Below are positions 25,610-50,023 of a stretch of DNA of 64,000 nt, piece by piece. The stretch is from Betaproteobacteria bacterium (GTDB lineage: Bacteria > Pseudomonadota > Gammaproteobacteria > Burkholderiales > Burkholderiaceae_F). Numbering within the stretch: position 1 is the first letter of the stretch; the number at the start of each line of letters is the position of its first letter. The DNA is taken from assembly GCA_046343415.1 (NCBI GenBank), contig JBKDNL010000028.1, positions 8,103 through 72,102 on the forward strand, in the 5' to 3' direction. The notes under the pieces are model-generated. The model saw nothing but the letters and a program-made list of their open reading frames with translations. It was not told where the DNA came from and made no database searches. The translations under genes were made by a program, and so were the position numbers.

Positions 25610-25621
25610 CTAACATGTAAG
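25610..25621. promoter_or_regulatory. 12-bp palindrome family CTAAC-RT-GTWAG, copy 0
   Basis: CTAACATGTAAG at the head of the rightward genes. Confidence 0.6.
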
Positions 25622-25642
25622 CTCATCACTATGGAGCCCATC

Positions 25643-25792
25643 ATGGAATACGTCATCGCTGCGCTGATCGTCGCTGCCGTCGCCTTCGTGGCGTTCCGCA
25701 AGCGCAAGTCGAGCAACCCGTTCGAGGGCAAGGATGTCGTCGACGGCGGGGCTGACGACCGCGACAACCGCGGCCACAAAGACCTGTTCTAA
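25643..25792 (+). CDS. small membrane protein
   Basis: Within ORF 25607..25792. ATG 25643 is preceded by GGAG at 6 nt. One TM helix (YVIAALIVAAVAFVAF) is followed by RKRK. Confidence 0.45.
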   Translation: MEYVIAALIVAAVAFVAFRKRKSSNPFEGKDVVDGGADDRDNRGHKDLF

Positions 25793-25795
25793 CCG

Positions 25796-26146
25796 ATGGG
25801 GAGCCCCGACGCTGCAACGCTAGCCAAGCAGCTCAAACAAAAGCTGCTTGAGGGGGCTCCTCACGTCGCTGAAGACCTTCTGACGCTTGTCCGCCAGTCG
25901 GAGAACCCGAAGGACTACATCGACTACCTGCAGCTCACATCCAGGCTAAACGGCCTGGAGCCGAAGCCCGACCAGAACGCCAACCTGCCCACCTTCAACA
26001 TCACGTTCCAGATGGGTGCGGTGCAGGCCGAGGTCAGTGCAGAGGTCATCGAGCACGCCTCTGCAGAGCAGCCGAAGCTAGCGGAGCCAGAAACGCAGGC
26101 GCCGGTAGTGGAGCCGTTTGTGCTCGACATCCAACCCATCGACTAG
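25796..26146 (+). CDS. hypothetical protein
   Basis: 116 aa with good GC3. It is closely coupled to the upstream stop. Confidence 0.55.
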   Translation: MGSPDAATLAKQLKQKLLEGAPHVAEDLLTLVRQSENPKDYIDYLQLTSRLNGLEPKPDQNANLPTFNITFQMGAVQAEVSAEVIEHASAEQPKLAEPETQAPVVEPFVLDIQPID

Positions 26147-26154
26147 GACTCACC

Positions 26155-26283
26155 ATGATGCCGTTTCAGCCGAAAGGCAAACCGCCGATGCCCAAAGGCA
26201 AAGGCCCCGTCGCCCCCGCCCCCGGAAAGAAAGCCCCTGGCGGCAAGCCGCCGATGCGCAAAGCCGCCGGCCGCGGCCGGTAA
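26155..26283 (+). CDS. very basic Lys/Pro/Gly-rich 42-aa peptide (uncertain)
   Basis: Hand translation: MMPFQPKGKPPMPKGKGPVAPAPGKKAPGGKPPMRKAAGRGR. It is below the ORF-track cutoff. Confidence 0.3.
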   Translation: MMPFQPKGKPPMPKGKGPVAPAPGKKAPGGKPPMRKAAGRGR

Positions 26284-26414
26284 TCAACGAGCACCACAGT
26301 ACGCCGGGCCTGCTGGACAGGCCGCAAGGTCGAAGGTGTGATCCGGGCAACCGGGGACTGGCCCGCAAGGGCTGCCTGACAGCCGGCGTGCTGCCTAGAG
26401 TTAGCAGGTAAGCC

Positions 26415-26831
26415 ATGCTTGCGATCCGTGAAGTCGACCCGCTCAAGTTCGGCGCCGTGCTGGAGTCCATGCACGCGGCCTGTTTTCCCGAAGACCAGAT
26501 GCCCGACTTCAAGCGGGGCTGGTGGTGGGTCGGGTTCGAGCGCGGGGAGCCCGCCGCGTTTTGCGGAATGCGCCACGTCGAGTCCTGGGATCGCACGGCA
26601 TACCTGAAACGTGCAGGGGTGCTGCGCGCGTACCGGGGCAGGGGTTACCAGCGGCGGCTAATCCGCGTGCGCCTGCAGAAGGCCAGAGCCCTCGGGTACG
26701 AGCGCGTCGTTACCGACACCACCGACAACCCCGCTAGCGCCAACAACCTCATGGAGTGCGGATTCCGGCTGTACACGCCGCATCAGCCGTGGGGGTATCG
26801 CCGCACTTTGTATTGGATTCGGACGCTATGA
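26415..26831 (+). CDS. GNAT family N-acetyltransferase
   Basis: 138 aa. VLRAYRGRGYQRRLI (acetyl-CoA binding R/Q-x-x-G-x-G/A type) and ...NLMECGFRLY. Confidence 0.7.
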   Translation: MLAIREVDPLKFGAVLESMHAACFPEDQMPDFKRGWWWVGFERGEPAAFCGMRHVESWDRTAYLKRAGVLRAYRGRGYQRRLIRVRLQKARALGYERVVTDTTDNPASANNLMECGFRLYTPHQPWGYRRTLYWIRTL

Positions 26832-27586: not shown

Positions 27587-29022
27587 AGCTGAACTTCGTG
27601 CCGGGGCCGGTGGGGGCCGCGTTCCTCCAGTCCCGCGCGTACATCAAGCTCATCATGGGGCCGGTGGGTGGCGGCAAGTCGACCGACGCCCTGATGGACT
27701 TGCTCCAGCGCAGCGTGCGCCAGCAGGCGTTCAACGGCGTGCGGCGGACAAAGCATGGCATCCTGCGCAACACGATGCAGCAGTTGAAGTCGACGGTGAA
27801 GCCGCTGATCGACCACTGGTTCTGCACGATGACCAACAACACGATGGGCGCGTGGAAGCTCACGGACAACACGTTCGAGATGCGCTTTCGCCTGCCGGAC
27901 GGCACCATCGTGCATTCGGACTTCATTCTCCTGGCGGCCGACACGCCGGACGACGTGCGGCGCCTGCTCTCGTTGGAGTTGAGCGATGCGTGGGTGGAGG
28001 AGGCGCGTGAGGTCGATTCGGCGGTGTTTGAAGGTCTGCAAGGTCGTGTGGCGCGCTTTCCTAACCGCGCGTCAGGAGGGGTGACGTACCCCGGGGTGAT
28101 CTGCTCGACCAACCCGCCGCCGATGGGCACCTACTGGCAGGAAAAGGCCAGCACTCCGCCGAAGAACATGGAGGTGTTCATCCAGCCGCCCGCGCTGCTG
28201 GAGGACGGCACGCTGAACCCCGACGCCGAGAACCTGGACAACCTCGACCCGAACTACTACTCCAACCTCGTCGAAGGCAAGACCGAGGACTGGATCAACG
28301 TCTACCTGAAGAATCGCTTCGGCTCCGGCGGCTGGGGCGAGCCGATCTTTGCCAGCACGTTCCGGCAGAGCTTTCACGTCGCCAAGGAGACGCTGAAGCC
28401 CATCTTCAGCTCGATTCACCCGCTGATCGTGGGCATGGACAACGGGCTGCAGGCGGCGTGCGTGATCGGCCAGCAAGACATGCGGGGCCGCGTGAACCTC
28501 CTGGGGGAGTGCTACGTCCCGGAGAAGGAGACGATGGGCGTGGAGACGTTCATCGACCGCTACCTCACGCCGTACCTGCTCGCCAAGTTCCCGGTCAAGC
28601 CCGAGCACATTCTGTTCGTCCTCGACCCGGCGTGCTGGCAGCGGTCGCAGGTCAACGAAGTGACCATCGCGCAGGCGGTGGCCGCGCGCAAGTACAACGT
28701 CCGCCGGGCGGCGACCAACGACCCGGAGCGCCGCATCGCGGCCGTGGAGGGGCTGTTGCAGCGGGCCATCGACGGCGGGCCGGGCCTGCTGATCAGCCCG
28801 GAGTGCAAGCACCTCATCAACGCCCTGGACTGGGGCTACCGCAACAAGAGGCAAAAGGACGGCAGCATCGTGGCGACGCCGGAGAAGAACCACTTCAGCC
28901 ACATTGCCGACGCCGCCCAGTATTTTTCGCTGCACTACAACACGATCATGCACCCCGCCGCTGGGCAGCTCATCCCCCAGGCGCACACGATTGAGCCGGT
29001 GGCCTTCCGCTACATCGTCTAA
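27583..29022 (+). CDS. terminase large subunit
   Basis: The start overlaps the upstream stop (ATGA). Walker A is GPVGGGKS, Walker B-like is LSLELSDAWVEEARE, and the STNPP motif is present. The nuclease half follows. Confidence 0.85.
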   Translation: MKLNFVPGPVGAAFLQSRAYIKLIMGPVGGGKSTDALMDLLQRSVRQQAFNGVRRTKHGILRNTMQQLKSTVKPLIDHWFCTMTNNTMGAWKLTDNTFEMRFRLPDGTIVHSDFILLAADTPDDVRRLLSLELSDAWVEEAREVDSAVFEGLQGRVARFPNRASGGVTYPGVICSTNPPPMGTYWQEKASTPPKNMEVFIQPPALLEDGTLNPDAENLDNLDPNYYSNLVEGKTEDWINVYLKNRFGSGGWGEPIFASTFRQSFHVAKETLKPIFSSIHPLIVGMDNGLQAACVIGQQDMRGRVNLLGECYVPEKETMGVETFIDRYLTPYLLAKFPVKPEHILFVLDPACWQRSQVNEVTIAQAVAARKYNVRRAATNDPERRIAAVEGLLQRAIDGGPGLLISPECKHLINALDWGYRNKRQKDGSIVATPEKNHFSHIADAAQYFSLHYNTIMHPAAGQLIPQAHTIEPVAFRYIV

Positions 29023-29030
29023 CGTGTTAG
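29019..29030. promoter_or_regulatory. 12-bp palindrome family, copy 1
   Basis: CTAACGTGTTAG overlaps the TerL stop and lies upstream of the portal gene. Confidence 0.7.
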
Positions 29031-29068
29031 AGTATGTGAGCCCCCGCTAACCTAGCCCCCGTGCACTC

Positions 29069-31213
29069 ATGATCCAACTCGGCCTGTCTGCGCAAACCGC
29101 CGCTCCCGCGGCGCCCGGCGTGCCTGCGGCGCCGATCCCCGCCCCGGTCAACGTCGGCGGCTTCCTGCCGATGGCGTCCGCCGCGGCGGTGCTAGATCAG
29201 CAGAAAAAGGAAGCCGAGGCCAAGTTTCAGGCCGAGCAAGGCCAGCCGCAGATCGTTGGCTTGGCAAACCACGTCCGCAAGTTCTTCGAGACGGCGCGGC
29301 AGGCCCGCGAAACGGTCGAGCGCGGCATGCTGGAGGCGACGTACGCCCGGCGCGGCGAGTACACGGCGGCGCAGCTCGCCGACATCAGCGCCAACGGGCA
29401 GGTGCCCATCTACATGATGCTGTTCAGCATGAAGTGCCGGCAGGCCGAAAGCTTGCTGCGCGACGTGTTGATCGGCGCCGGCAGCGAAAAACCGTGGACG
29501 GCGCGGCCGTCGGCGAAGCCCGACCTGCCGCTGAACGTGGTGGCCGAAATTATGCAGGGCGTGGCCTCCGAGGTGCAGCAAGCGCAGATGCTGGGCTTGA
29601 TGCCCACCATCGAGATGATCAAGCAGCGCCTCCGCGACGCCCGCGAGCAGGCCGAAGCGCAGATCATGGAAGAAGCCCGTGCCCGCGCCGAGCGCATGGA
29701 AACGAAGATGGAAGACCAGCTCCAGGAAGGCGACTTCCTAGAGGCGCTCGACCAGTTCATCACCGACCTGCCGCAGTTCAAGGCGGCGTTTATCAAGGGG
29801 CCGGAGCTGCGCCAGCGGCGCGTGCTCAAGTACAACGACGCCGGCAAGCTGGAGCCGGCGACTGAAATCAAGCTGGAGTGGGACCGGGTCGACCCGTTCA
29901 ACGTGTACCCGGCGCCCTGGGCGCGCGATCTGCAGACCGCGCCGTTCGTCGAGCGCTACAAGCTTACCCGCAGCGACCTGAACGCCCTGATGGGCACGCC
30001 GGGCTTCAGCGACGAGGCCATCCGCAAGACGCTGACTGAGTACGACTCGGGCATGACCGGCCTGTGGCTGACCATCGACCAGCAAAAAGCCAGCGCCCTC
30101 GGCCAAGACCAGCTCAGCGCCACGACCAACACGGGCGAGATCAACGCGTTCCGCTACTGGGGCTCGATCAGCGGCCAGATGCTCCGCGAGTGGGGCATGA
30201 AGCCCGAGCAGGTGCCCGACGAGGCCAAGGAGTACGAGTGCGAGTGCTGGCTGGTCGGCACCACGATCATCAAGGCGGTGCTCAACCCCGACCCGCTGGG
30301 CCGCCGGCCGTACTACACCACCAGCTACGAGCGCATCCCCGGCACGCTGTGGGGCAACTCGATGTACGACCTGATGCGCGACTGCCAGATGATGTGCAAC
30401 GCCGCGGCGCGCGCCCTGGCGCAGAACATGGCGATTGCCTCTGGCCCGCAGGTGGTCGTCTACAGCGACCGTGTGCCCAGCGGCCAGCAGGTCACGCAGA
30501 TGTACCCGTGGAAAATCTGGCAGGCCACGAGCGACCCGATGGGCGGCACGGCCAAGCCGGTCGACTTCTTCCAGCCCGCGAGCAACGCTCAAGAGCTGAT
30601 GAACATTTACGAGCGGTTCAGCATTCTGGCCGACGAATACACCGGCATCCCGCGCTACATGACGGGCACCGAGGGCACGCCGGGCGCCGGGCGCACCGCG
30701 TCGGGCCTGTCCATGATGATCGGCAACGCGAGCAAGGTCATCAAGGCGGTGGTCGGCGGCATCGACACGTACATCCTGAAGCCCCTGCTGGAGCGCCTGT
30801 TCCAGTACAACATGCTCAAGGGCGACGACCCCGAGTCGTACGGCGACGTAAACATCGTCGTGCGGGGCGCGCTGTCGCTCACAGCCAAAGAGTCGGCGAT
30901 GGTTCGCCGCAACGAGTTCCTGCAGATCACTGCCAACCCCATCGACATGCAGATCATCGGCATGGAAGGTCGCGCGGAAGTGCTGCGGGAAACGGCCAAG
31001 TTGCTCGACATGAACACCGACAAAGTCGTGCCGCCGGTCAGCGTCATCAAACAGCGCATGGCCCAACAGCAAATGGCGGCGATGGCCCAGGCGCAAGCCC
31101 AGGGTGGCGACAAAAATGAGTCCGGCAAGGGCGGGGCGAACAACGCCGAGCAGTCCGGCGGCGGCAAGCAGCTCATGGACGGGGCACCCGCCACCGACAA
31201 CTTCGCAAGTTAG
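29069..31213 (+). CDS. portal protein (by position and size)
   Basis: 714 aa, immediately after TerL, with an acidic/Gly-rich C-terminus. No motif-level proof. Confidence 0.6.
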   Translation: MIQLGLSAQTAAPAAPGVPAAPIPAPVNVGGFLPMASAAAVLDQQKKEAEAKFQAEQGQPQIVGLANHVRKFFETARQARETVERGMLEATYARRGEYTAAQLADISANGQVPIYMMLFSMKCRQAESLLRDVLIGAGSEKPWTARPSAKPDLPLNVVAEIMQGVASEVQQAQMLGLMPTIEMIKQRLRDAREQAEAQIMEEARARAERMETKMEDQLQEGDFLEALDQFITDLPQFKAAFIKGPELRQRRVLKYNDAGKLEPATEIKLEWDRVDPFNVYPAPWARDLQTAPFVERYKLTRSDLNALMGTPGFSDEAIRKTLTEYDSGMTGLWLTIDQQKASALGQDQLSATTNTGEINAFRYWGSISGQMLREWGMKPEQVPDEAKEYECECWLVGTTIIKAVLNPDPLGRRPYYTTSYERIPGTLWGNSMYDLMRDCQMMCNAAARALAQNMAIASGPQVVVYSDRVPSGQQVTQMYPWKIWQATSDPMGGTAKPVDFFQPASNAQELMNIYERFSILADEYTGIPRYMTGTEGTPGAGRTASGLSMMIGNASKVIKAVVGGIDTYILKPLLERLFQYNMLKGDDPESYGDVNIVVRGALSLTAKESAMVRRNEFLQITANPIDMQIIGMEGRAEVLRETAKLLDMNTDKVVPPVSVIKQRMAQQQMAAMAQAQAQGGDKNESGKGGANNAEQSGGGKQLMDGAPATDNFAS

Positions 31214-31240
31214 TGCTTACTTGACAGATAACAGGCTTAC

Positions 31241-31447
31241 ATGTCAGACTCTGCGCAACGAGACTTAGAGCTGTTCAAACGGCTGTCGGTCACCGAACCG
31301 CACTTGCGTGCTTTCCTCACGCGACTGTTTGAACAGGAACTCAAAATTCTGCTCGTCAACCCTGTCGACACGACATTGCACGTCGCCCAAGGAAAAGGGC
31401 AGGCGTACAAGAGGCTGATCGACATGTTAGACGGCAAGACGGTTTAA
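31241..31447 (+). CDS. hypothetical protein
   Basis: 68 aa ORF between the portal and scaffold genes. Confidence 0.45.
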   Translation: MSDSAQRDLELFKRLSVTEPHLRAFLTRLFEQELKILLVNPVDTTLHVAQGKGQAYKRLIDMLDGKTV

Positions 31448-31511
31448 CCCGTCGCGGGGGCGACCCCCCGCATCCACCACCAACAAGCCGCCAGTCGGCC
31501 TTGGAGAAGCA

Positions 31512-32501
31512 ATGGCAACACGCATGCCGCGACCCGTACAGGAGCAGTTGAAAGCCGCCGAGAAATTGGAGGCGCAACTGAAAGCAGAGGTAGAGGCCCC
31601 GGCCCCCGCCCCGCTCCCCTCTCTGGAGCAAGTTCTGGCAACACCAGAGCCCGCCCCCGAGCCCACTCCAGCCCCGGCACCTGTTGCCGCACCGGCCCCG
31701 GCCCCCGCGCCGACGCCGGCCCCGACGCCTCCGCAACCCGATCCGTGGGAGCACAAGTACCGAGTCCTGCAGGGCCTGTTCAACCAGCGGGTGCCTGAAC
31801 TCCAAGGGCAGGTCAAGACGCTCTCGCAGCAGATCGAAAAGCTGCAGAAGCAACCGGAGCCCGCGCCGCAGAAGGCCCAGCCGGATGCGAAGGACATCGA
31901 GGACTTCGGCAAGGAGCTAGTCGAGATGGTTAGCCGCAACGCCCAGCGTCATATCGACGCGGCGCTTGGCACTCTCGGCCACCGAATCGACGCCCTCGAA
32001 GCACTGGCGACCGAGCTGCAGCAAGGCGTCCAAGTCACGTCAAAGCAGATTGCGATGACGGCCGAAGACAACTTCTGGCAGACGCTTGCCGGCGAGGTGC
32101 CGGACTACGAGACCGTCAACCAGAGCCCCACGTTTCTGCAGTGGCTCGCGGTGGTGGACAAGGTGTACCGGAAACCGCGCCAGCACGCGCTCGATCAAGC
32201 CTGTGACTCGCTTGACGCAAAAGCCGCAGCAGCGGTGTTCAAAGCGTTCAAGGAGGAGCAGGCGCGGCAGCCCGCCAGTGCCGCACTAACGGAAACGGTC
32301 AGTCCGCTTTCGAGTTCCGGTGGCGCCGCGCCGCCCATGCAGCAGAAGCCGGTGATCTACGCATCGCAGATCACCGCCTTCTACGAGCGCCAGCGTCGCG
32401 GCCACTACCGGAATAACCCGGCGGAAATGAACCGACTAGAAGCAGAAATCAACTCTGCTGTTCAGGAAGGACGCGTAATCGACGACACGGGAGCCCGTTA
32501 G
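31512..32501 (+). CDS. scaffolding protein (inferred)
   Basis: 329 aa. It has coiled-coil and Pro/Ala-rich segments and lies directly upstream of the capsid gene. Confidence 0.55.
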   Translation: MATRMPRPVQEQLKAAEKLEAQLKAEVEAPAPAPLPSLEQVLATPEPAPEPTPAPAPVAAPAPAPAPTPAPTPPQPDPWEHKYRVLQGLFNQRVPELQGQVKTLSQQIEKLQKQPEPAPQKAQPDAKDIEDFGKELVEMVSRNAQRHIDAALGTLGHRIDALEALATELQQGVQVTSKQIAMTAEDNFWQTLAGEVPDYETVNQSPTFLQWLAVVDKVYRKPRQHALDQACDSLDAKAAAAVFKAFKEEQARQPASAALTETVSPLSSSGGAAPPMQQKPVIYASQITAFYERQRRGHYRNNPAEMNRLEAEINSAVQEGRVIDDTGAR

Positions 32502-32583
32502 TCGGTAAGTGAGCACCTCCTGAATGGCCTTTAACGCGCGCCTCGGCGCGCGGATTGAAACAACCACTCAGGAGGTGCTCTAA

Positions 32584-33597
32584 ATGGCAACCGTAACCCC
32601 CGCAGCCCTTTACCCGATCAACGCGGGTAACGGCACCACGACCGGCTCGTCTTTCAACACGACGCCGTCGCACTCCGGCACGTTCATCCCGACCATCTGG
32701 TCGGCCAAGATGAACGCCAAGTTCTATGCCGCGTCCGTGTACGCGAGCATCATGAACACTGACTGGCAGGGCGACATCAGCGGCCTCGGCGACAAGGTGA
32801 TCATCAACACCGCGCCGGACATCACGATCAGCAACTACACGGTCGGTCAGAACCTGACCTACCAGTCGCCGACGCCGTCCACCGTCGAGCTGAACATCGA
32901 CAAAGGCAAGGTCTTCGCCTTCGCCGTGTCGGACGTGCTCGCGTATCAGGCCAAACCTGACCTGATGGACACGTTCAGCAACGACGCCGCCGAGCAGATG
33001 AAGGTCAACATTGACCGCGACTGCCTGCGCGACGTGCTGGTGGACTTCCTGGGCATGGCATCGGGCGCTGCCAACCGCGGCGCAACGGCCGGCGTGCGTT
33101 CTGGCGCGTTCAACCTCGGCACGGACAACGTCCCCATCGTCCTGACGGGTGCGAACGTCCTCGCGAAAATTCTGGAACTGGCCTCGGTACTGGACGAGCA
33201 GAACGTCCCCGAGTCGGATCGCTGGCTGGTGATCGACCCACTCACCCGCACGCTGCTGATGCAGTCGAACCTCGCCCAGGCGCAGTTCATGGGCGACGCG
33301 ACGAGCCCGGTGCGCAACGGCATGATCGGCCGCATCGACCGCTTCACGGTGTACGTGAGCAACCAGCTCCCGCGTGCGCTCGCCGGCCAGAACTTCACTG
33401 GCGGCGCGCAGGCTGGTGCGGTAGCCCGCCGGGCGATTCTCGCCGGCCATCGCAGCGCCGCGTGCTTCGCGTCGCAGATGACCAAGACCGAGACGCTGCG
33501 CAACCCGAACGACTTCGGCGATCTGGTGCGTGGTCTGCAGGTCTACGGCCACAAGGTCGTGCGAGCTGAGGCATTCGCCGTCCTGCTCGCGGCCTAA
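32584..33597 (+). CDS. major capsid protein
   Basis: 337 aa with RBS AGGAGGTGCTCTAA. The N-terminus ...IPTIWSAKMNAKFYAASVYASIMNTDWQGDISGLGDKVII resembles podovirus-type coat proteins. Confidence 0.7.
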   Translation: MATVTPAALYPINAGNGTTTGSSFNTTPSHSGTFIPTIWSAKMNAKFYAASVYASIMNTDWQGDISGLGDKVIINTAPDITISNYTVGQNLTYQSPTPSTVELNIDKGKVFAFAVSDVLAYQAKPDLMDTFSNDAAEQMKVNIDRDCLRDVLVDFLGMASGAANRGATAGVRSGAFNLGTDNVPIVLTGANVLAKILELASVLDEQNVPESDRWLVIDPLTRTLLMQSNLAQAQFMGDATSPVRNGMIGRIDRFTVYVSNQLPRALAGQNFTGGAQAGAVARRAILAGHRSAACFASQMTKTETLRNPNDFGDLVRGLQVYGHKVVRAEAFAVLLAA

Positions 33598-33648
33598 TGA
33601 GTTGGGTGGGGGCTAACACCCCCACCCTCTCTAACCAAGGAGATCGAC

Positions 33649-34005
33649 ATGCCTTTCGCATCAACCCTCATCGCCTCGGGCCTGCACACCACGCAGATTA
33701 CCCCCGGCTCGGTTGCCGTTAACCTCACGGCCGCTGGCGCCACCCAGGCGACCGCCTTGGTGCTCCGTGACGAAGTCAACATCATCGGCACGGCGGCGGC
33801 CTCGACGGGCGTGCTGCTGCCGCAGACTGGCGTCGGCGACGACATCGTCGTCGTCAATGGCGGCGCGAACGCGGTGCTGGTGTACCCGCCCGTAGGCCAC
33901 CAGATCAACAGCCTTGCGGCCAACGCCGGCTACTCGCTGGCCGTGGCAAAAGCGGCCCGCTGCCTCCGCGTCTCCGAGACGCGATGGGTGGTGATCGCCG
34001 CCTAG
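33649..34005 (+). CDS. hypothetical virion protein (capsid-associated by position)
   Basis: 118 aa with RBS AAGGAG. It is followed by a stem-loop. Confidence 0.5.
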   Translation: MPFASTLIASGLHTTQITPGSVAVNLTAAGATQATALVLRDEVNIIGTAAASTGVLLPQTGVGDDIVVVNGGANAVLVYPPVGHQINSLAANAGYSLAVAKAARCLRVSETRWVVIAA

Positions 34006-34016
34006 GCGAGCGCTAA

Positions 34017-34028
34017 CTAACGTGTTAG
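34017..34028. promoter_or_regulatory. 12-bp palindrome family, copy 2
   Basis: CTAACGTGTTAG lies between the stop at 34005 and the stem-loop at 34033. Confidence 0.7.
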
Positions 34029-34032
34029 ACTG

Positions 34033-34060
34033 AAAGGGCAGGCTGCGAGGCTTGCCCTTT
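34033..34060 (+). terminator. stem-loop / probable intrinsic terminator after the capsid module
   Basis: AAAGGGCAGG-CTGCGAGG-CTTGCCCTTT followed by CCCTTTG. Confidence 0.55.
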
Positions 34061-34076
34061 CCCTTTGTGAGCGACC

Positions 34077-34721
34077 ATGCCGACCATCACCGCGCAGTCC
34101 ATCGTTGACAAGGCGCAGACCATCCTGCAGGACACGCCTGGCATGCGCTGGTCGGACTCAGAGCTGCTGGGCTGGCTTAATGACGGCCAGCGCGAAATCT
34201 GCTCGCTGCGGCCCTCCGCGAAGACGCGCTCGGCCACGCTGACGCTCGTCGCCGGCACGCGCCAGACGCTGCCCGACTCGGCCACCATGCTCATCGAGGT
34301 GATGCGCAACATGCCAGGCGGCTCGCCCGGCGCGGCCATCCGCAAGACCGACCGCGAGACGCTCGACTCGTTTGTCCCCGGCTGGCACACGCTGTCGCCG
34401 GTCGCGACCTTGCAGAACTTCGCGTACGACCCGAGCGTGCCGGAGCAGTTTTGGGTCTACCCGCCGGCCGTCGCCAGCACGCAGATCGAAGCGGTGATCG
34501 CGGAGCGCCCGACCGACGTGGCGCTTGCCAACCCTATCGACCTGGACGACATGTACTCGAACGCGCTTATGGACTACGTGCTGTATCGCGGCTACAGCAA
34601 GGACGCCGAGCACGAGGGCAACCGCGCCCTGGCGGTTGCGTACCGCCAGTCGTTCGAGAACACCCTGGGCCTGAAGGCCACGGGCGACGCCGCCGCTGTC
34701 AAGAAGCCCTCGGTGGAGTAA
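34077..34721 (+). CDS. hypothetical virion protein
   Basis: 214 aa ORF in the head-to-tail region. Confidence 0.55.
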   Translation: MPTITAQSIVDKAQTILQDTPGMRWSDSELLGWLNDGQREICSLRPSAKTRSATLTLVAGTRQTLPDSATMLIEVMRNMPGGSPGAAIRKTDRETLDSFVPGWHTLSPVATLQNFAYDPSVPEQFWVYPPAVASTQIEAVIAERPTDVALANPIDLDDMYSNALMDYVLYRGYSKDAEHEGNRALAVAYRQSFENTLGLKATGDAAAVKKPSVE

Positions 34722-34724
34722 ACG

Positions 34725-38901: not shown

Positions 38902-38913
38902 CTAACGTGTAAG
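38902..38913. promoter_or_regulatory. 12-bp palindrome family, copy 3
   Basis: CTAACGTGTAAG lies directly after the stop at 38901. Confidence 0.65.
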
Positions 38914-38940
38914 ATAATGACTCCCCAAGGAGAACCGACG

Positions 38941-43510: not shown

Positions 43511-43522
43511 CTAACGTGTTAG
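43511..43522. promoter_or_regulatory. 12-bp palindrome family, copy 4
   Basis: CTAACGTGTTAG is preceded by GCTAGCGCTCA and followed by CCATAATCCATAATCC. Confidence 0.7.
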
Positions 43523-43557
43523 TGCCATAATCCATAATCCAACCTGAAGGAGCGCAT

Positions 43558-43872
43558 ATGTCTCACGCTGAGAAACTGATGAAAGCCGGCGCCGAGTGCG
43601 TCGGGGGCTTCATGTACCTGAACCGCGTCCATGTCGGCACGTACAAGGACAGCGGCTTCGTACTCACCGAGGCGGGCGTGGAAGCCGCCCTCGCCCTGGC
43701 GGAACCGAAGGCTGAGGCTCCGGCGCCCGCCCCCGCGCCCGCTCCGGCGGAACCGGAGGCTGAGGCCCCGGCGCCCGCCCCGAAAACCAAGACGTCAAAA
43801 GCGGCTGCGGCCCCGGCGCCCGCGCCCGCGCCCGACGAAGACCCGCTGGCTGGGCTCGACTTCGACGTGTAA
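43558..43872 (+). CDS. hypothetical protein with Pro/Ala-rich linker
   Basis: 104 aa with RBS AAGGAGCGCAT. Confidence 0.5.
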   Translation: MSHAEKLMKAGAECVGGFMYLNRVHVGTYKDSGFVLTEAGVEAALALAEPKAEAPAPAPAPAPAEPEAEAPAPAPKTKTSKAAAAPAPAPAPDEDPLAGLDFDV

Positions 43873-44294
43873 TGGGCGCGCTCGTCTACGGCCAAGACGA
43901 ACGAGTGACGGCGTGGGTGGCGGCGCAGTCGGGAGACGCCCCGCCGCCACCCACCGCCGCGGTTGGCTACGAGCGGAATGGCGAGCTTGCCGCCGGCACC
44001 TACTTCGACGGGTGCAGCGACAACAACATCTTCTGCCACATCGCCAGCACCGGCTTGCTGCCCCGCGAGCTGCTGCAGGCGGCGATGGCGTATGCGTACC
44101 GGCAGCTTGAGCTGGAGCGCATGACGTTGATAGTGCACGACGACAACGAGCGGTGCATCAACTTGTGCCTGGGACTCGGGGCAGAGCTGGAAGGCGTGAT
44201 GGCGCGGGCTCGCAAGGGCGGCGACATCCTGTTGTTTGTGCTGTGGAACACGAATCGGTTTTGGAGGCGTCTGTGCGAATCTGGTCGAGCCTAG
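43872..44294 (+). CDS. GNAT-like acetyltransferase fold protein (tentative)
   Basis: 140 aa. The layout ...IFCHIAS...LLQAAMAYAYRQLELERMTLIVHDDNERCINLCLGLGAELEGV resembles short phage GNATs. Confidence 0.4.
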   Translation: MGALVYGQDERVTAWVAAQSGDAPPPPTAAVGYERNGELAAGTYFDGCSDNNIFCHIASTGLLPRELLQAAMAYAYRQLELERMTLIVHDDNERCINLCLGLGAELEGVMARARKGGDILLFVLWNTNRFWRRLCESGRA

Positions 44295-46653: not shown

Positions 46654-46656
46654 CCC

Positions 46657-48903
46657 ATGCTGACCATTCAAGAAATCCGCGCCCGTTACGGCGGCCTGCC
46701 CGATCTGACGGACGAGCAGGTCGTCCAGCGCGCCTACACGGCGCTGCAGCGGTACTACCCGGACTTCCAGAGCTTCGCCAAGGAGGTCGGGTACGACCCG
46801 GAGTGGGACTTCGGTCGGGGCTTGCGCATCGCCGGCCGCAACACGCTGGCCGCAGGTGCCGGCGCAGGCGCGGCGCTGGCGAGCGCGGTCGGCGCGACCG
46901 GCGTGCGGGACAACCTGCTGGACTACGCTGGCACGCAGAGCCAGCGCGCGGTCGAGCTGGGGCGCACGTCCGATGACGTGGACAATTTCTTCAGCGACCC
47001 CGGCTCGTTCCTCGCGGCCGGCGCGGGTCAGGCTGTCGGCTACGCCGCGCCGTCCCTGCTGGCTGGCGGTGTCGGGGGCCTGGGCCTGCGCGGCGCTGCG
47101 GCGCTCGGCACGCGCTCAATGGGCGGGCAGCTCGGTGCCCAGGCCGCGCGGCAGGCGACGATGGCCGGCGCGGCCGGCGGGGCGTACGCCTCGAACTACG
47201 CGCAGGCCACGGGCGGCATCTACAACGAACTGATGGAGCAGGGCATCGACGACCCAGGCCGCGCAGCGGTCTACGGCGCCGGGGTGGCCGCGCTTGACAC
47301 CGCGCCCGAACTGCTGGGCGTCGGCCGGCTTATGAAGGGTGGCGTCGGCGGCCTGCGCGGTGCCGGTCGCGCGGCCCTGGTGCAGGCGGGCGCTGAAGGC
47401 GCCACCGAGGCCGGGCAGACCGCCATCGAGCGGCAGGCGGCGTACAAGCCGCTGCTTGACGACGAGGCGATGAAGGAGTACCGCAACGCGGCCGCGCTGG
47501 GCGCGCTGGGCGGCGGCCTGTTCGGCGGGGCGACCGGCTGGCGCCGCTCACCGCAGATCACCAACGTGGACGCGCCGCAGACCGACCTGCTGCAGGGCGA
47601 GCGCCCGGACTTCGCGCTGACGAACCCGACCCTGCCGACCGACCCCGACATGCAAATGCCGGGGATGGGCGCCGAGGTCATCAGCGCCGACCCGCGCCAG
47701 ATCAACATGTTCGACCCGCAGGGCGAGCCGACGTACTTCGCCGACCCGAGCTTCGGCTTCGGCTATGGCGCGGACGCCGCGGCCAACCCGACGCGCGATC
47801 CGACGTTCGCCCCCGCCGGCACCGGGCTGGGCACGCCGGGCTTCCAGATGGAGGCGTTCGCACCGGGCGGGCAGACCGAACTGTTCAGCTACGACCAGCT
47901 TCCGCCAGGCGGCCCCGAGAGCGTCGCGGCAATGCCTGACGAGGGCGCGGCGCCGATGGCCGATACGGCCACGGGCGACATCTTTGCCGACCGCCCCACG
48001 GCGACGGTGCAGACGGACTTCGGATCGAACAACATCACGCGCGAGCTGCGCGTCGCCAACGAGGGCAAGACCGACTCGTGGCTGGCGAAGTTCTCCAACG
48101 CCCTGTCGGGGGTCATCACCGACCCGGCCAAGACCGCCGAGTTCCTGGAGAACGCGCAGGAGGACAACGTCAACAGCCGCGCGAGCCAAGCGACCACGGC
48201 CCGCCGCGACAAAGTGCTTGCCGCCGCGCGCCAGGTCGCCCAGCGGTTCCAGAGCCGCATGGTCGGCGCCCAGGCGCAGGAAGGCGCGGCGCGCGGCCGA
48301 CCGGGGGTTCGTGTGGGCCAGCAGCCGGCCAGCACCACGGCCGACGACATGCGCGCCCGCAACGAGCGCGACGCGTTCAACGAGCAACTGTCGTCGACCG
48401 ACGAGCGCGTGCTGGCGTCGCGCCGCCGGGGCCTGCTGGACGCCGTGCTGGAAGACGCAACCACGCGCAACCCGCTGGGGCGCTTCACGGCGATGCTCAA
48501 GCGCAACGGACTTGGCGCGACCGCCAGCGCCGAGGAGCAGCAGCGCATCAGCCGCTACATGGACGCCAAGGCGGGCCTGACCGGCCAAGGCCAGGGCCAA
48601 GGCCAGGGCGAGCAGCTTGGCGAGCGCACACTGCCGACCGCCGAGCCAAACGTGCCGGCCACCGAGAAAGCCGGCCGAGGCCCGCCGAAGACGCAAACAG
48701 AGCTCGACTTCGAGGGCAAAGCGACTCCGGCCCCGGCCCCGGCCCCCGCAGAGCCCAGCTACGACGGCGTCGCCGTCGAGCTGACGGTGGATGCGGGCGG
48801 CAAGACACGCAAACTGAAGATCGCGGATGCTGGCAAGAAGCTCCGCGAGCTGCAGACCAAGCGTGACAAGTACCAGCAACTCTTTGTCTGTCTTACACGT
48901 TAG
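46657..48903 (+). CDS. large Gly/Ala-rich virion (internal/ejection-type) protein
   Basis: 748 aa ORF. No catalytic motif was recognised. Confidence 0.55.
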   Translation: MLTIQEIRARYGGLPDLTDEQVVQRAYTALQRYYPDFQSFAKEVGYDPEWDFGRGLRIAGRNTLAAGAGAGAALASAVGATGVRDNLLDYAGTQSQRAVELGRTSDDVDNFFSDPGSFLAAGAGQAVGYAAPSLLAGGVGGLGLRGAAALGTRSMGGQLGAQAARQATMAGAAGGAYASNYAQATGGIYNELMEQGIDDPGRAAVYGAGVAALDTAPELLGVGRLMKGGVGGLRGAGRAALVQAGAEGATEAGQTAIERQAAYKPLLDDEAMKEYRNAAALGALGGGLFGGATGWRRSPQITNVDAPQTDLLQGERPDFALTNPTLPTDPDMQMPGMGAEVISADPRQINMFDPQGEPTYFADPSFGFGYGADAAANPTRDPTFAPAGTGLGTPGFQMEAFAPGGQTELFSYDQLPPGGPESVAAMPDEGAAPMADTATGDIFADRPTATVQTDFGSNNITRELRVANEGKTDSWLAKFSNALSGVITDPAKTAEFLENAQEDNVNSRASQATTARRDKVLAAARQVAQRFQSRMVGAQAQEGAARGRPGVRVGQQPASTTADDMRARNERDAFNEQLSSTDERVLASRRRGLLDAVLEDATTRNPLGRFTAMLKRNGLGATASAEEQQRISRYMDAKAGLTGQGQGQGQGEQLGERTLPTAEPNVPATEKAGRGPPKTQTELDFEGKATPAPAPAPAEPSYDGVAVELTVDAGGKTRKLKIADAGKKLRELQTKRDKYQQLFVCLTR
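48892..48903. promoter_or_regulatory. 12-bp palindrome family, copy 5
   Basis: CTTACACGTTAG is the reverse complement of copy 3. It overlaps the stop at 48903 and lies upstream of the holin. Confidence 0.65.
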
Positions 48904-48912
48904 GATGTAAAC

Positions 48913-49107
48913 ATGAACGACCACACCAAACACGCCGTCGACGCTCTTGCCGTCACGACCACCGTCGCCACCGTGTTTCAGTGGCTCCCCGCCATTGCGG
49001 CGCTGCTGTCGATTGTGTGGACGATCATCCGGCTTTACGAGACAAAAACTGTGCAAGGGATTTTCGAATGGCTCAAGACAAAATTCGCCTCGCTGTTGGG
49101 GCGCTGA
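48913..49107 (+). CDS. holin (inferred)
   Basis: 64 aa with TM segments ALAVTTTVATVF and LPAIAALLSIVWTII and a charged C-terminus. It lies directly upstream of the endolysin. Confidence 0.6.
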   Translation: MNDHTKHAVDALAVTTTVATVFQWLPAIAALLSIVWTIIRLYETKTVQGIFEWLKTKFASLLGR

Positions 49108-49535
49108 CCATCTCGGGCTCACTGCTGGTGAGCTTGGCGTTGCACGAGGGCTACCGGGGACAGGCGTACGTCCCCGTGCCCGGCGACGTGCCAACCATCG
49201 GCTTCGGCACGACCGGCGGCGTCAAGATGGGCGATACGACCACGCCCGAGCGCGCTCTCGTGCGCCTGCTCGCGGACGCGGATCGCTTTGCCCAGGCCGT
49301 GCGCCGCTGCGCGCCCGTGCCGATGTTCCAGCACGAGTTCGACGCCTACGTCAGCCTGACCTACAACATCGGCGAGGGAGCGTTCTGCCGCTCGACCCTG
49401 GCGCGCCGGCTGAACGCAGGCGACTACAAAGGCGCCTGCGATGAAATCCTGCGCATGGACAAGTTCCAAGGCCAGCCACTGCCGGGCCTGACTGCCCGGC
49501 GCCAAAAGGAGCATCGCAAATGCTTGGGCCGGTAG
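49068..49535 (+). CDS. GH24 lysozyme-type endolysin, possibly signal-anchor-release (SAR) type
   Basis: Start at Met30 of ORF 48981..49535. A hydrophobic N-terminus (LAVGALTISGSLLVSLAL) is followed by HEGYRGQAYVPVPGDVPTIGFGTT...YVSLTYNIGEGAF. Confidence 0.8.
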   Translation: MAQDKIRLAVGALTISGSLLVSLALHEGYRGQAYVPVPGDVPTIGFGTTGGVKMGDTTTPERALVRLLADADRFAQAVRRCAPVPMFQHEFDAYVSLTYNIGEGAFCRSTLARRLNAGDYKGACDEILRMDKFQGQPLPGLTARRQKEHRKCLGR

Positions 49536-50023
49536 GACTGCGCAACATCGAGCGCGGGCTGTGGATCGCGCTCATCGGCGTCAGCGGGCTGTTCTGCTTC
49601 AGCCTGTACGCGGAAAACGCGAAGCTCAAGCTCGAAATCGCCGAGCGTGAGAACGACATCATCATGCATATCGCCGAGAGCGAAGCCAAGCTGCGCCAGC
49701 AGGAAGCCGCGGCGGTAAAGCGCGTAAACCAACTGGAGATCGAACATGCCGCGCAATCTCAAGATCGTGACCGCGCTCTGTCTGCTGCTCTTGGCCGGCT
49801 GCGCGACGCAGAAGCCCGTGCCGCCCGTAAGCCCGCCGCGGATGCCCCCGCCACCTGCCGCGATTACGGCGCCAGTCCAGACCAACTTTCTGTGTCTGAC
49901 CGAGAAATTCTTGTACGGCTCGGAGCAGCAGCGGACGAAGTTGCTGGACGACTTGCGCTCTGTCGCGCCTACGTCGATACCTTGCGAGAGCTAGCACACA
50001 CTAACATGTTAGACGTACAATAG
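49520..50023 (+). CDS. i-spanin (Rz-like)
   Basis: 167 aa with an N-terminal TM helix and a coiled-coil periplasmic domain. It follows the endolysin. Confidence 0.7.
   Translation: MLGPVGLRNIERGLWIALIGVSGLFCFSLYAENAKLKLEIAERENDIIMHIAESEAKLRQQEAAAVKRVNQLEIEHAAQSQDRDRALSAALGRLRDAEARAARKPAADAPATCRDYGASPDQLSVSDREILVRLGAAADEVAGRLALCRAYVDTLRELAHTNMLDVQ
49746..49994 (+). CDS. o-spanin (Rz1-like lipoprotein) embedded in the i-spanin gene
   Basis: 82 aa in the +1 frame inside 49520..50023. It has a lipobox LLLAGC and a Pro-rich mature part. Confidence 0.7.
   Translation: MPRNLKIVTALCLLLLAGCATQKPVPPVSPPRMPPPPAAITAPVQTNFLCLTEKFLYGSEQQRTKLLDDLRSVAPTSIPCES
50001..50012. promoter_or_regulatory. 12-bp palindrome family, copy 6
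   Basis: CTAACATGTTAG is preceded by GCTAGCACACA and followed by ACGTACAAT. Confidence 0.7.

What the first reader, a model, noticed from the sequence alone, without database searches (positions are those of the whole stretch)
25610..50012. Conserved 12-bp palindrome CTAAC-RT-GTWAG punctuates the rightward late operon every 1-5 kb
Seven copies were read directly: CTAACATGTAAG 25610, CTAACGTGTTAG 29019, 34017 and 43511, CTAACGTGTAAG 38902, its exact reverse complement at 48892, and CTAACATGTTAG 50001. Every copy lies in one of the few intergenic gaps of the late block, at or just after a stop codon and 10-50 nt before the next start. These are the gaps upstream of the portal, of the first post-capsid gene at 34077, of 38941, of 43558, of the holin, and of the post-lysis block. 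Each is followed within about 15 nt by an A/T-rich hexamer of -10 type (TAGAGT, TAGACT, GATAAT, CATAAT, TAGGAT, TACAAT). The inner TGT gives an extended -10-like TGnTAG. No good -35 is present and no other late promoter is visible. A 5-bp stem with a 2-nt loop cannot fold as RNA, so a dimeric DNA-binding protein site is more likely. That could be an activator-dependent late promoter or operator. Related half-sites GTWAG occur as direct repeats in the spacers of the two leftward TTGACA/TAAAAT promoters (18943-18959, 25371-25386). They also occur as CTAACAGGTTAG at 5597 and 22186 and CTAAC-N4-GTTAG at 9092. The 8-mer CTAACAGG recurs at 5597, 22186, 23090, 25373 and 59171, and inverted at 7985.
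Basis: partly seen in the sequence, partly recalled or inferred. Interest (0 to 1): 0.62.

Follow-up and report, generated by a model that had tools for sequence, protein, structure and literature searches.

The report
Conserved operator-like palindrome on phage promoters
A 12-letter DNA palindrome recurs at gene junctions of an integrated phage and its uncultured relatives, where it sits on ordinary host-type promoters and is most likely the docking site of an unidentified phage regulator, probably a repressor.

Summary
CTAACRTGTWAG occurs at all seven stated coordinates (0 expected), and an eighth one-mismatch copy lies at 31236.

The unit is the pentamer GTWAG in pairs:
- Inverted (CTWAC-N2-GTWAG): 11 copies against 0.04 expected.
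- Direct (GTWAG-N3-GTWAG): 7 copies against 0.05 expected.

The element is a prophage next to tRNA-Thr. It is a podovirus distantly related to HMO-2011-type phages. At least 20 uncultured relatives (portal 46-62% identical) keep the motif in the same gaps, and inverted and direct forms replace each other at one syntenic gap.

Among 52 late-side sites, 37 carry a -10-like hexamer downstream, against 6 in mirror orientation. Twenty-five carry TGn, against 0. In 21 sites the right arm itself supplies TGnTAG of an extended -10. Several sites lie in the spacer of TTGACA-N17/18 promoters.

Metatranscriptome contigs of a sister strain begin at 31243-31259 and fall 5-10-fold after the terminator at 34032-34061.

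My best reading is a protein-binding operator laid over sigma-70-type promoters, probably repressive. A P1 Lpa-like activator remains possible for the sites centred near -22. No binder was identified and no phage RNA polymerase was found. I class this as a new member of a known kind.

The parts
25610..25621 (+). Inverted pair CTAACATGTAAG at the start of the rightward late operon. Candidate -10 hexamers are TAAGCT (25618-25623) or CACTAT (25627-25632).
   Evidence: An RNA contig of a sister strain starts at 25643, with none between 25400 and 25643.
29019..29033 (+). Inverted pair CTAACGTGTTAG overlapping the TerL stop codon. Its right arm forms the extended -10 TGTTAGAGT (29025-29033), upstream of the portal gene.
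   Evidence: Conserved in L007, L089, L050, L175, L119, L101, L194 and L205. An RNA contig starts at 29051.
31221..31250 (+). Promoter TTGACA (31221-31226), N18, CAGACT (31245-31250), with the one-mismatch palindrome CTTACATGTCAG (31236-31247) over its spacer and -10. It lies just after the portal stop codon.
   Evidence: Conserved in L089, L090, L177 and L137. RNA contigs start at 31243 and 31259, and depth rises from 0-3 to 11-66.
34017..34031 (+). Inverted pair CTAACGTGTTAG with the extended -10 TGTTAGACT (34023-34031), in the post-capsid gap.
   Evidence: The gap is syntenic, with the same order of palindrome, -10 and hairpin, in more than 12 relatives.
34032..34061 (+). Terminator-like hairpin that starts directly after the -10. 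Its 5' arm covers the predicted transcription start.
   Evidence: The 13-bp stem folds at -22.7 kcal/mol, z = -3.6. RNA starting at 34040 cannot form it. RNA depth falls 5-10-fold here.
38902..38918 (+). Inverted pair CTAACGTGTAAG directly after a TAA stop codon. Candidate -10 hexamers are TAAGAT (38910-38915) and GATAAT (38913-38918).
43511..43538 (+). Inverted pair CTAACGTGTTAG followed by the extended -10 TGCCATAAT (43523-31) and a second CATAAT (43533-38). GCTAGC lies 5 nt upstream (43500-05).
48892..48906 (+). Inverted pair CTTACACGTTAG. Its TAG is the stop codon of the 748-aa gene. TAGGAT is at 48901-06, and the holin ATG lies 9 nt after the palindrome.
50001..50021 (+). Inverted pair CTAACATGTTAG inside the 3' end of the spanin gene, followed by TACAAT (50016-21). 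GCTAGC lies 5 nt upstream (49990-95).
   Evidence: An RNA contig reads through this site.
32497..32509 (+). Direct pair GTTAGTCGGTAAG between the scaffold and capsid genes. It is followed by a strongly structured capsid leader (32511-32580).
   Evidence: Direct pairs occupy the same gap in L089 and L008.
26400..26412 (+). Direct pair GTTAGCAGGTAAG, 2 nt upstream of the GNAT gene start.
   Evidence: L089 position 12788 is equivalent.
25365..25392 (-). Leftward promoter TTGACG-N16-TAAAAT, with the direct pair GTAAGCCTGTTAG (25373-25385) in its spacer, ending 2 nt before the -10.
   Evidence: In L089 the pair is inverted as a unit in the same spacer.
18937..18965 (-). Leftward promoter TTGACA-N17-TAAAAT, with the direct pair GTAAGTCCGTAAG (18945-18957) in its spacer.
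   Evidence: The half-sites are kept and the N3 is changed in L089.
18222..18234 (-). Direct pair GTAAGTCCGTTAG between the 219-aa and 804-aa genes, followed by a GGACA...TGTCC stem-loop.
24480..24492 (-). Direct pair GTTAGCGTGTTAG just downstream of the terminator of gene 24543-25316.
7403..7415 (-). Direct pair GTTAGCCAGTAAG at the junction of genes 7404-8012 and 6746-7423.
22186..22197 (-). Inverted pair (CTAACCTGTTAG on the minus strand) in a 30-nt junction of the leftward operon. It abuts the Shine-Dalgarno sequence (GTTAGGAG), and no -10 is visible.
   Evidence: Conserved in L090 and L092.
5597..5608 (-). Inverted pair of the same kind as 22186, overlapping a stop codon and abutting the next Shine-Dalgarno sequence.
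5021..5032 (-). Inverted pair CTAACCCGTAAG (minus strand) at a junction of leftward genes.

Best explanation
The recurring unit is the pentamer GTWAG, used in pairs. The pairs are either head-to-head (CTWAC-N2-GTWAG) or head-to-tail (GTWAG-N3-GTWAG). Each pair is the binding site of one sequence-specific DNA-binding protein that has not been identified. It is probably phage-encoded and binds as a dimer or as two adjacent units.

The sites are superimposed on the core of host sigma-70-type promoters, at about -27 to -10. These promoters divide the late operon, and also other operons of this prophage family, into separately initiated units.

In the commonest design the right arm is itself the TGnTAG of an extended -10 promoter (TGTTAGAsT). 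Elsewhere the pair fills the spacer of TTGACA-N17/18-TAnnnT promoters, or ends 0-7 nt before a separate -10. A protein bound there competes with sigma, so the most likely action is repression by occlusion. Copies at tight junctions that lack promoter signals would act as roadblocks.

Shown here: the motif, its enrichment, its conservation, the gene-oriented promoter features, and an RNA 5' boundary at one site.

Inferred: that a protein binds, the sign of regulation, and the identity of the binder.
For: - Enrichment: 11 inverted and 7 direct pairs against 0.04 and 0.05 expected. Eight of 8 late copies lie 0-50 nt from a start codon, P about 1e-10.
- Symmetry: W varies in both arms, and the centre takes GT, AT, AC or GC. 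This fits recognition of double-stranded DNA. RNA folds leave the palindrome unpaired.
- Conservation: the motif is in the same gaps in at least 20 related phage loci whose TerL, portal and capsid are only 46-63% identical. Half-sites are kept while the spacer letters change.
- Inverted and direct forms replace each other at the syntenic post-portal gap. A direct pair is flipped as a unit inside one promoter spacer.
- Promoter features are polar. Thirty-seven of 52 sites have a -10-like hexamer downstream, against 6 in mirror. Twenty-five have TGn, against 0. Twenty-one are in register -3. The centre is GT against AC in 21:6 of unbiased sites, p = 0.006. The Wilcoxon test on the first 24 sites gave p = 1.7e-4.
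- Pairs lie in the spacers of complete promoters: 18937-18965 and 25365-25392, 31221-31250, L050 15734 and L059 4481, L205 11091 and L177 4586.
- Relatives L046 and L012 keep TGcTAGAGT plus the terminator in the post-capsid gap without the left arm. The promoter therefore exists independently of the palindrome.
- Metatranscriptome contigs start at 31243 and 31259. Depth there is 11-66, against 0-3 over the portal gene.
- The element is an integrated prophage, with tRNA-Thr, an integrase and host genes on the left flank. Its sigma-70 promoters must therefore be silenced in the lysogen.
Against: - No binding protein was identified. Pfam, PHROG and NCBIfam scans of about 50 proteins gave no repressor.
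- The protein in the classical repressor position (23522-24376) gave a low-confidence model with no fold match.
- The main early promoter (23060-23088) carries only a half-site, which is odd for an immunity repressor.
- Eleven of the 37 sites with a good -10 have neither TGn nor a -35. These would be weak promoters on their own, which is what an activator model predicts.
- The RNA data are assembled contigs of a sister strain, not mapped 5' ends.
- Many of the 52 sites are orthologous, so the statistics overstate independence.
Confidence: 0.5

Rival explanations
1. The sites are activator-dependent late promoters of the phage P1 Lpa type. An early phage protein binds the palindrome just upstream of a -10 hexamer, replaces the missing -35 contact, and switches on the late units.
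For: [quoted passage not shown] From my memory of Lehnherr et al. 1992, that repeat is centred near -22 and there is no -35.
- Here the sites with a separate -10 at +2 to +5 place the palindrome centre at about -20 to -24. Examples are 43511, 50001, L011 3022, L050 17832 and L009 15529.
- Eleven sites have a good -10 but neither TGn nor a -35.
- Late genes of well-studied phages are under positive control (PMC10695390).
Against: - In 21 of 37 sites the right arm overlaps the -10 hexamer and TG, where an activator could not sit together with sigma.
- The spacing to separate -10 hexamers ranges from 0 to +7.
- Pairs occur inside the spacers of promoters that already have consensus -35 and -10 elements.
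- Sites also lie in the leftward non-late arm and at junctions without any -10.
- No family match of any kind, Lpa-like or other, appeared for the proteins scanned against PHROGs.
Confidence: 0.2
2. One regulator acts as a dual-function switch. It represses promoters where its site overlaps the -10 or fills the spacer of a complete promoter. It activates -10-only promoters where its site is centred near -22. This is how phi29 p4 acts on early and late promoters.
For: There are two geometric classes: register -3 (21 sites) and +0 to +7 (14 sites). The complete promoters with pairs in their spacers are mostly leftward or in front of single genes.
Against: There is no direct evidence for either activity. 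The two classes grade into each other. The class-A site at 31236 heads the most abundant late RNA, so it is not shut off late in infection.
Confidence: 0.12
3. The motif is the promoter of a phage-encoded RNA polymerase or sigma factor, as in T7-like phages or in phiEco32 gp36.
For: - The structural module is podovirus-like, with SU10-type portal and capsid families.
- The motif precedes many transcription units.
- A large conserved early protein of unknown function (804 aa, 1418 family representatives) is present.
Against: - No RNA polymerase or sigma domain was found in any protein scanned.
- The 804-aa protein gave a confident model (pLDDT 84) with no polymerase-like fold match. The only match was a weak GNAT-like subdomain.
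- The motif has dyad symmetry and occurs in direct and inverted forms.
- Clear sigma-70 elements (TTGACA, TGn, TAnnnT) accompany it at variable spacing.
Confidence: 0.04
4. A host-encoded global regulator binds the motif, so these phages tie their promoters to a host signal.
For: - The motif is identical across phages whose early proteins differ. No control-region proteins are shared between the window and L009, L050 or L013.
- The one recognisable winged-helix early protein is only 38% identical between two phages that have identical motifs.
Against: - I know of no host regulator with this site; this is from memory only.
- The phages range from 55 to 67% G+C, which suggests different hosts.
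Confidence: 0.09
5. The motif works as RNA, for example as a processing or termination hairpin, or as a translation-control signal next to Shine-Dalgarno sequences.
For: - In the L208, L119, L121 and L101 lineage the post-portal palindrome is extended to CCGG...CCGG and followed by a T run.
- Four window copies abut a Shine-Dalgarno sequence as GTTAGGAG or GTTAGGAT.
Against: - In the window the arms are not extended. A 5-bp stem with a 2-nt loop cannot form, and the folds leave it unpaired.
- Direct repeats cannot pair.
- If the predicted starts are right, most copies lie upstream of the transcript.
Confidence: 0.05

Closest known systems
Phage P1 late promoters with the Lpa-binding inverted repeat
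   Same: Both have many promoters scattered through the late genes. Each has a -10 hexamer and a conserved inverted repeat just upstream in place of a -35 (PMC10695390). A subset of sites here places the repeat centre near -22.
   Different: Here most copies overlap the -10 or TG element, and the spacing is not fixed. The motif also occurs as direct repeats, inside complete -35/-10 promoters and outside the late genes. No Lpa-like protein was found.
Mycobacteriophage L5 / cluster A stoperators
   Same: Both have dozens of repressor sites spread over the whole prophage genome, mostly in short gaps at stop and start codons, that silence transcription (PMC9283540 and PMC6550527).
   Different: Stoperators are asymmetric 13-mers bound by a monomer and act in one orientation. 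The present sites are symmetric or tandem pairs of a 5-bp unit, and most coincide with promoter elements. The main early promoter here lacks a full site.
Omega repressor (ribbon-helix-helix) of inc18 plasmids
   Same: In both, a short unit is used in direct or inverted pairs at 7-8 bp periodicity, overlapping core promoters. This is recalled from Weihofen et al. 2006 and was not checked here.
   Different: The unit sequence differs (WATCACW heptads) and the setting is a plasmid rather than a phage. No ribbon-helix-helix protein was identified in the window.
Dispersed C1 operators of phage P1 and conserved inverted repeats (CIR) of phiC31
   Same: In both, a single phage repressor has many operators distributed over the genome at promoters of separate operons. 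This is from memory.
   Different: The sequences are different. P1 operators are asymmetric 17-mers. There is no homologous repressor here.
Extended -10 (TGnTATAAT) sigma-70 promoters
   Same: TG lies one base upstream of a TAnnnT hexamer, a -35 is often lacking, and the element is oriented with the genes. Twenty-five of 52 sites fit this.
   Different: The hexamer is the non-consensus TAGAsT, and it is fused to a mirrored left arm that a plain promoter does not need.

Membership tests
Sigma-70 extended -10 promoter | TG at -15/-14, one base upstream of a TAnnnT hexamer, oriented with the downstream gene | tested here: met
   Twenty-five of 52 sites against 0 of 52 in mirror orientation. T is enriched at motif positions 7 and 15. 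In the window this holds at 29025-33, 34023-31 and 43523-31.
Sigma-70 extended -10 promoter | Transcripts start 6-8 nt downstream of the hexamer | tested here: inconclusive
   Metatranscriptome contigs of a sister strain start at 31259 and 31243 (start predicted near 31257), 25643, 29051 and 34062. These are assembled contigs, not mapped 5' ends.
P1 Lpa-type late promoter | Inverted repeat at a fixed distance upstream of the -10 (centre about -22), with no -35 | tested here: not met
   The offsets are -4/-3 (23 sites) and 0 to +7 (14 sites). Four sites have a perfect TTGACA.
P1 Lpa-type late promoter | An Lpa homologue is encoded by the phage | tested here: not met
   PHROG, Pfam and NCBIfam scans of the early proteins gave no such hit. 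A remote homologue cannot be excluded.
P1 Lpa-type late promoter | The motif is restricted to late transcription units | tested here: not met
   Pairs lie in the leftward arm of the window and in front of leftward genes in L050 and L009.
L5-type stoperator system | Many copies at short intergenic junctions over the whole prophage | tested here: met
   Nineteen pairs in 64 kb, nearly all at gene junctions.
L5-type stoperator system | An asymmetric site that acts in one orientation and is bound by a monomeric immunity repressor | tested here: not met
   The sites are dyad-symmetric or tandem. A direct pair is flipped in L089. No related repressor was found.
L5-type stoperator system | The same site acts as operator at the main early lytic promoter | tested here: not met
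   The promoter at 23060-23088 has only one half-site, next to its -35.
T7-like phage RNA polymerase promoter | The phage encodes a single-subunit RNA polymerase | tested here: not met
   No RNA polymerase family hit was found. The model of the 804-aa protein has no polymerase-like fold match.
Intrinsic terminator / RNA hairpin | A stable stem-loop forms in the transcript | tested here: not met
   The palindrome is unpaired in minimum-free-energy folds of 34017-34070, 29019-29069 and 43511-43558. The true hairpin lies next to it, at 34032-34061.
Omega-type ribbon-helix-helix operator | A ribbon-helix-helix repressor is encoded by the element | not tested
   Pfam gave no RHH hit in the window. 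A three-module protein in L050 (4663-5523) looks RHH-like, by eye only.

The most novel reading that the evidence does not exclude
The regulator may have evolved to read the phage's own extended -10 sequence (TGTTAG) as its half-site. Adding a mirrored CTAAC two bases upstream would then put any promoter of the family under its control. The same protein would accept inverted or tandem pairs. It would repress where it overlaps the -10 and activate -10-only promoters where it is centred near -22. One protein would then set the whole temporal programme, without a phage polymerase or antiterminator.
Probability: 0.12. Interest if true: 0.65.

Novelty: new member of a known kind. Interest (0 to 1): 0.42.

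Why it matters
This gives a first handle on transcription control in a large group of freshwater and soil podoviruses, nearly all uncultured, that are distantly related to HMO-2011-type phages.

The results give:
- a defined motif;
- a map of likely promoters and one terminator-promoter overlap;
- a testable prediction that one unknown protein controls them all.

The motif can also serve as a marker for annotating transcription units in these genomes. If the binder is found, it would probably define a new family of phage regulators.

Tried and rejected
- **Phage RNA polymerase.** The 804-aa early protein has no Pfam, PHROG or PDB sequence hit. It belongs to a large family. It gave a confident model with no polymerase-like fold, only a weak GNAT-like piece. 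Rejected.
- **Protein 23522-24376 as the repressor.** It has only four homologues. The model had pLDDT 63 and no fold match. Left open.
- **Double winged-helix protein 13070-13723 as the binder.** It is only 38% identical to its L090 counterpart although the motifs are identical, and no wider homologues were found. Unlikely.
- **The 68-aa gene behind the 31236 promoter as an autoregulated binder.** It is conserved, but it is also present in L017, which lacks the motif. Unlikely.
- **Protein 24543-25316 as the binder.** It has its own promoter with a direct pair in the spacer, and a weak C-terminal similarity to an equivalently placed L009 protein. It is rich in Ala and Lys and has no wider homologues. 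Weak candidate only.
- **Searches that gave little.** Megablast of the late block against cultured phages found nothing. Two single-protein scans of viral contigs gave almost nothing.
- **Exact 15-mer scan.** It returned mostly chance hits in low-GC contigs, and only the 19 multi-site loci were used.
- **Literature and earlier notes.** A literature search for the 12-mers gave only irrelevant hits. The earlier-findings index had nothing on relatives.
- **RNA contigs.** Over the early arm and the far late region they were too sparse to use.
Full report
**1. The observation**

CTAACRTGTWAG is present at 25610, 29019, 34017, 38902, 43511, 48892 (reverse orientation) and 50001, exactly as reported. 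None was found in 100 dinucleotide-preserving shuffles. The looser CTWACNNGTWAG gives 11 copies against 0.03 expected, adding 5021, 5597, 12492 and 22186. Allowing one mismatch reveals an eighth late copy, CTTACATGTCAG at 31236, directly after the portal gene.

All eight late copies end 0-50 nt upstream of a start codon, or overlap one. Only 5.5% of positions in the late block do so, which gives P of about 1e-10. The named hexamers, the promoter-spacer repeats and the CTAACAGG copies are all there, with two coordinates off by one.

**2. What the element is**

The window is 66% G+C and comes from a freshwater metagenome.
- Host genes lie at 318-2324, tRNA-Thr at 2411-2486 and a tyrosine integrase at 2944-3975. 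These mark the left end of an integrated prophage.
- A leftward arm runs from about 23.1 kb to 4 kb. It holds DNA polymerase A, an M28-like peptidase, an 804-aa unknown protein, a PD-(D/E)XK nuclease, a Tad2-like protein and a DksA/TraR-like protein.
- A rightward arm runs from 25.6 to 58.3 kb. It holds TerL, a portal, a scaffold-like gene, the major capsid protein, an internal virion protein, tail fibre-like genes, lysis genes and a 1488-aa DarB-like protein.
- The portal and capsid belong to the SU10-type families.
- The nearest cultured phages are Rhizobium phage RHph_TM3_14A (portal 39%) and HMO-2011-type phages.
- No nucleotide match exists among cultured phages.

**3. The real unit is a pair of GTWAG pentamers**

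I counted all arrangements and spacings against first-order Markov simulations that keep the window's dinucleotide statistics. Only two stand out. The inverted form CTWAC-N2-GTWAG has 11 copies against 0.04 expected. The direct form GTWAG-N3-GTWAG has 7 copies against 0.05 expected.

The direct pairs lie at 26400 and 32497 on the plus strand, and at 25373, 24480, 18945, 18222 and 7403 on the minus strand. All are at junctions or in promoter spacers.

Two of them fill the spacers of the strong leftward promoters TTGACA-N17-TAAAAT (18937-18965) and TTGACG-N16-TAAAAT (25365-25392). Each ends 2 nt before the -10.

**4. Conservation**

Relatives in IMG/VR with portal identity of 46-62% carry the same palindrome in intergenic gaps: L008, L009, L011, L013, L050, L051 and L059. 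Closer relatives found through a neighbouring protein do so too: L089 and L090.

An exact 15-mer scan returned 118 new loci. Ninety-nine had a single copy and were mostly low-GC chance hits. Nineteen had 2-7 copies, and all 19 belong to the same phage family (TerL 57-63%, capsid 55-63%).

Several points show selection on the half-sites and indifference to arrangement:
- The post-capsid gap keeps the same order of parts in more than a dozen lineages: stop codon, palindrome, -10 hexamer, terminator hairpin.
- In the post-portal gap some phages carry the inverted pair (window, L089, L177, L137) and others a direct pair (L101, L175).
- In the promoter homologous to 25365-25392, L089 carries the direct pair flipped as a unit.
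- In the promoter homologous to 18937-18965, the half-sites are kept while the three spacer letters differ.

This behaviour fits protein recognition of double-stranded DNA. The 12-mers do not occur in the searchable literature in any relevant context.

**5. Relation to promoters**

I collected 52 non-redundant sites on the structural-gene side of 20 loci and oriented them with the genes.

| Feature | Downstream of site | Mirror orientation |
|---|---|---|
| -10-like hexamer within -4 to +10 | 37 | 6 |
| TG one base upstream of that hexamer | 25 | 0 |

In 21 sites the hexamer starts at motif position 10, so the right arm supplies TGnTAG of TGTTAGAsT.

The motif is not perfectly symmetric along the direction of transcription:
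- The centre is GT far more often than its complement AC: 21:6 in sites not biased by my search pattern, p = 0.006.
- Position 13 prefers A or C.
- Position 15 prefers T.

Four independent sites also have a perfect TTGACA at 17-18 bp: L050 15734, L059 4481, L205 11091 and L177 4586. The window's 31236 site has the same arrangement (31221-31250), although it was outside this set because it is a one-mismatch copy.

Relatives L046 and L012 lack the left arm but keep TGcTAGAGT and the terminator in the post-capsid gap. The promoter is therefore the older, independent part, and the palindrome is laid over it.

The remaining sites have a separate -10 (CATAAT, TACAAT, TATACT, TAGAAT, TAAAAT) at 0-7 nt after the palindrome.

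**6. RNA evidence**

No RNA run of the organism itself exists. Metatranscriptomes from one study do hold contigs of a sister strain at about 93% identity.
- In three runs, abundant contigs (depth 11-66) begin at 31243, 31259 and 31320 and cover the scaffold and capsid genes.
- The portal gene upstream has depth 0-3.
- Depth falls 5-10-fold beyond about 34.0-34.3 kb.

This places a strong start at the TTGACA/palindrome/CAGACT promoter, where the start is predicted near 31257. It places an effective stop at the hairpin 34032-34061.

That hairpin (-22.7 kcal/mol) begins directly after TAGACT. An RNA that starts at 34040 cannot form it. Transcripts initiated at the 34017 promoter would therefore escape the terminator that stops capsid transcripts. 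This is an inference.

Other contig starts at 25643, 29051 and 34062 lie 21-34 nt after palindromes. Contig ends are weak evidence. One point is unresolved. The ATG of the conserved 68-aa gene (31241) lies inside the palindrome and upstream of the predicted start.

**7. Mechanism**

A symmetric or tandem pair of 5-bp units, 7-8 bp apart, points to a protein that binds as a dimer or as two neighbouring units.

Its position is the informative part. It overlaps the TG and the first half of the -10 in the largest class. It fills the spacer of complete promoters in others. At several leftward junctions (5021, 5597, 22186, 7403, 26400) it has no promoter signal at all. A protein in these positions would exclude sigma or block elongation.

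I therefore favour a repressor that silences or times the many sigma-70 promoters of this prophage. An integrated phage with constitutive-looking promoters in its late genes needs some such device.

Three points count against this:
- The main early promoter has only a half-site.
- Eleven sites have only a -10 and would need help to fire.
- Well-studied phages control late genes positively (PMC10695390).

The P1 Lpa model fits the subset centred near -22, and a dual switch is possible. I put repression at about 0.5, pure activation at 0.2 and a dual role at 0.12.

**8. The binder**

None was found.
- Family scans of about 50 proteins gave only a DksA/TraR-like zinc finger and weak winged-helix hits in 13070-13723.
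- That winged-helix protein is 38% identical between two phages with identical motifs.
- The orphan protein in the repressor position (23522-24376) has repeated strand-helix-turn-helix-like modules but no confident model.
- The 804-aa protein is not polymerase-like.
- The control-region proteins of L009, L050 and L013 are unrelated to those of the window. The binder is therefore either a conserved protein elsewhere in these genomes or a host factor.

**9. Comparison with known systems and novelty**

The closest known systems are P1 late promoters, L5 stoperators, the dispersed operators of P1 C1 and phiC31, and omega-repressor heptads. The motif fails at least one defining feature of each (see the membership table), so it is not a member of any of them.

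As a kind of thing, a multi-copy regulator site on phage promoters is familiar. The new points are:
- the motif itself;
- its conservation across an uncultured clade;
- the fusion of the half-site with the extended -10;
- the free exchange of inverted and direct pairs.

Noticed in passing
window 15741-18155 (-): An 804-aa early protein with an (AE)n tail. It has no Pfam, PHROG or PDB sequence hit, yet it belongs to a family with 1418 representatives at 50% clustering. The AlphaFold model is confident (pLDDT 84), and the only fold match is a weak GNAT-like subdomain.
   Followed up: partly
window 34026-34061: A -10 hexamer (TAGACT) abuts a 13-bp terminator stem, so the predicted start lies inside the stem's 5' arm. 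The same arrangement occurs in more than 12 relatives, including ones without the palindrome. It looks like a terminator that stops upstream transcripts and is bypassed by locally started ones.
   Followed up: partly
window 32511-32580: The capsid-gene leader folds into a long hairpin (-46.4 kcal/mol, z = -8) that pairs the Shine-Dalgarno AGGAGG with an upstream CCTCCT. L089 and L008 have equivalent pairings.
   Followed up: partly
window 31259-34060: In three metatranscriptomes the scaffold-capsid unit of a sister strain is 10-25 times more abundant than the portal, terminase or tail genes.
   Followed up: yes
window 31241: The ATG of the conserved 68-aa gene lies inside the palindrome 31236-31247. 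It is about 16 nt upstream of the start predicted for the TTGACA-N18-CAGACT promoter. How this gene is translated from the abundant transcript is unexplained.
   Followed up: partly
window 21415-26738, also 43500 and 49990: Twenty-two of the 30 GCTAGC copies cluster in the control region, many of them inside genes. Two late palindromes have GCTAGC exactly 5 nt upstream. Locus L008 has 13 copies of CTAGC-N3-GCTAG in 12 kb.
   Followed up: partly
L211 (Rhizobium phage RHph_TM3_14A, MN988472.1, 1-50000): The closest cultured relative lacks CTWAC-N2-GTWAG. It carries 31 copies of TTACC-N5/6-GGTAA, many at gene junctions and often containing CCTC...GAGG. This is a different multi-copy palindrome in the same broad phage group.
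   Followed up: partly
L208 2927, L119 1679, L121 3680, L101 7980: In this lineage the post-portal palindrome is flanked by CCGG...CCGG and followed by a T run. The same core could there fold as a terminator-like hairpin.
   Followed up: no
window 23522-24376 (+): An orphan 284-aa protein sits in the classical repressor position, behind a 450-bp A/T-enriched gap. It has three repeated strand-helix-turn-helix-like modules and only four homologues in 5.8 billion proteins.
   Followed up: partly
window 9367-9603, 7404-8012, 6067-6291 (-): Three notable early genes: a Tad2-like (anti-Thoeris) protein, a protein with the N-terminal domain of dATP/dGTP diphosphohydrolases, and a DksA/TraR-type zinc-finger protein.
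   Followed up: no
window 58870-64000 (-): Leftward phage genes continue to the window's right edge, among them a DUF927 primase/helicase-like protein of 1026 aa and a Gam-like protein. The prophage therefore extends beyond the window, and its right attachment site was not seen.
   Followed up: no
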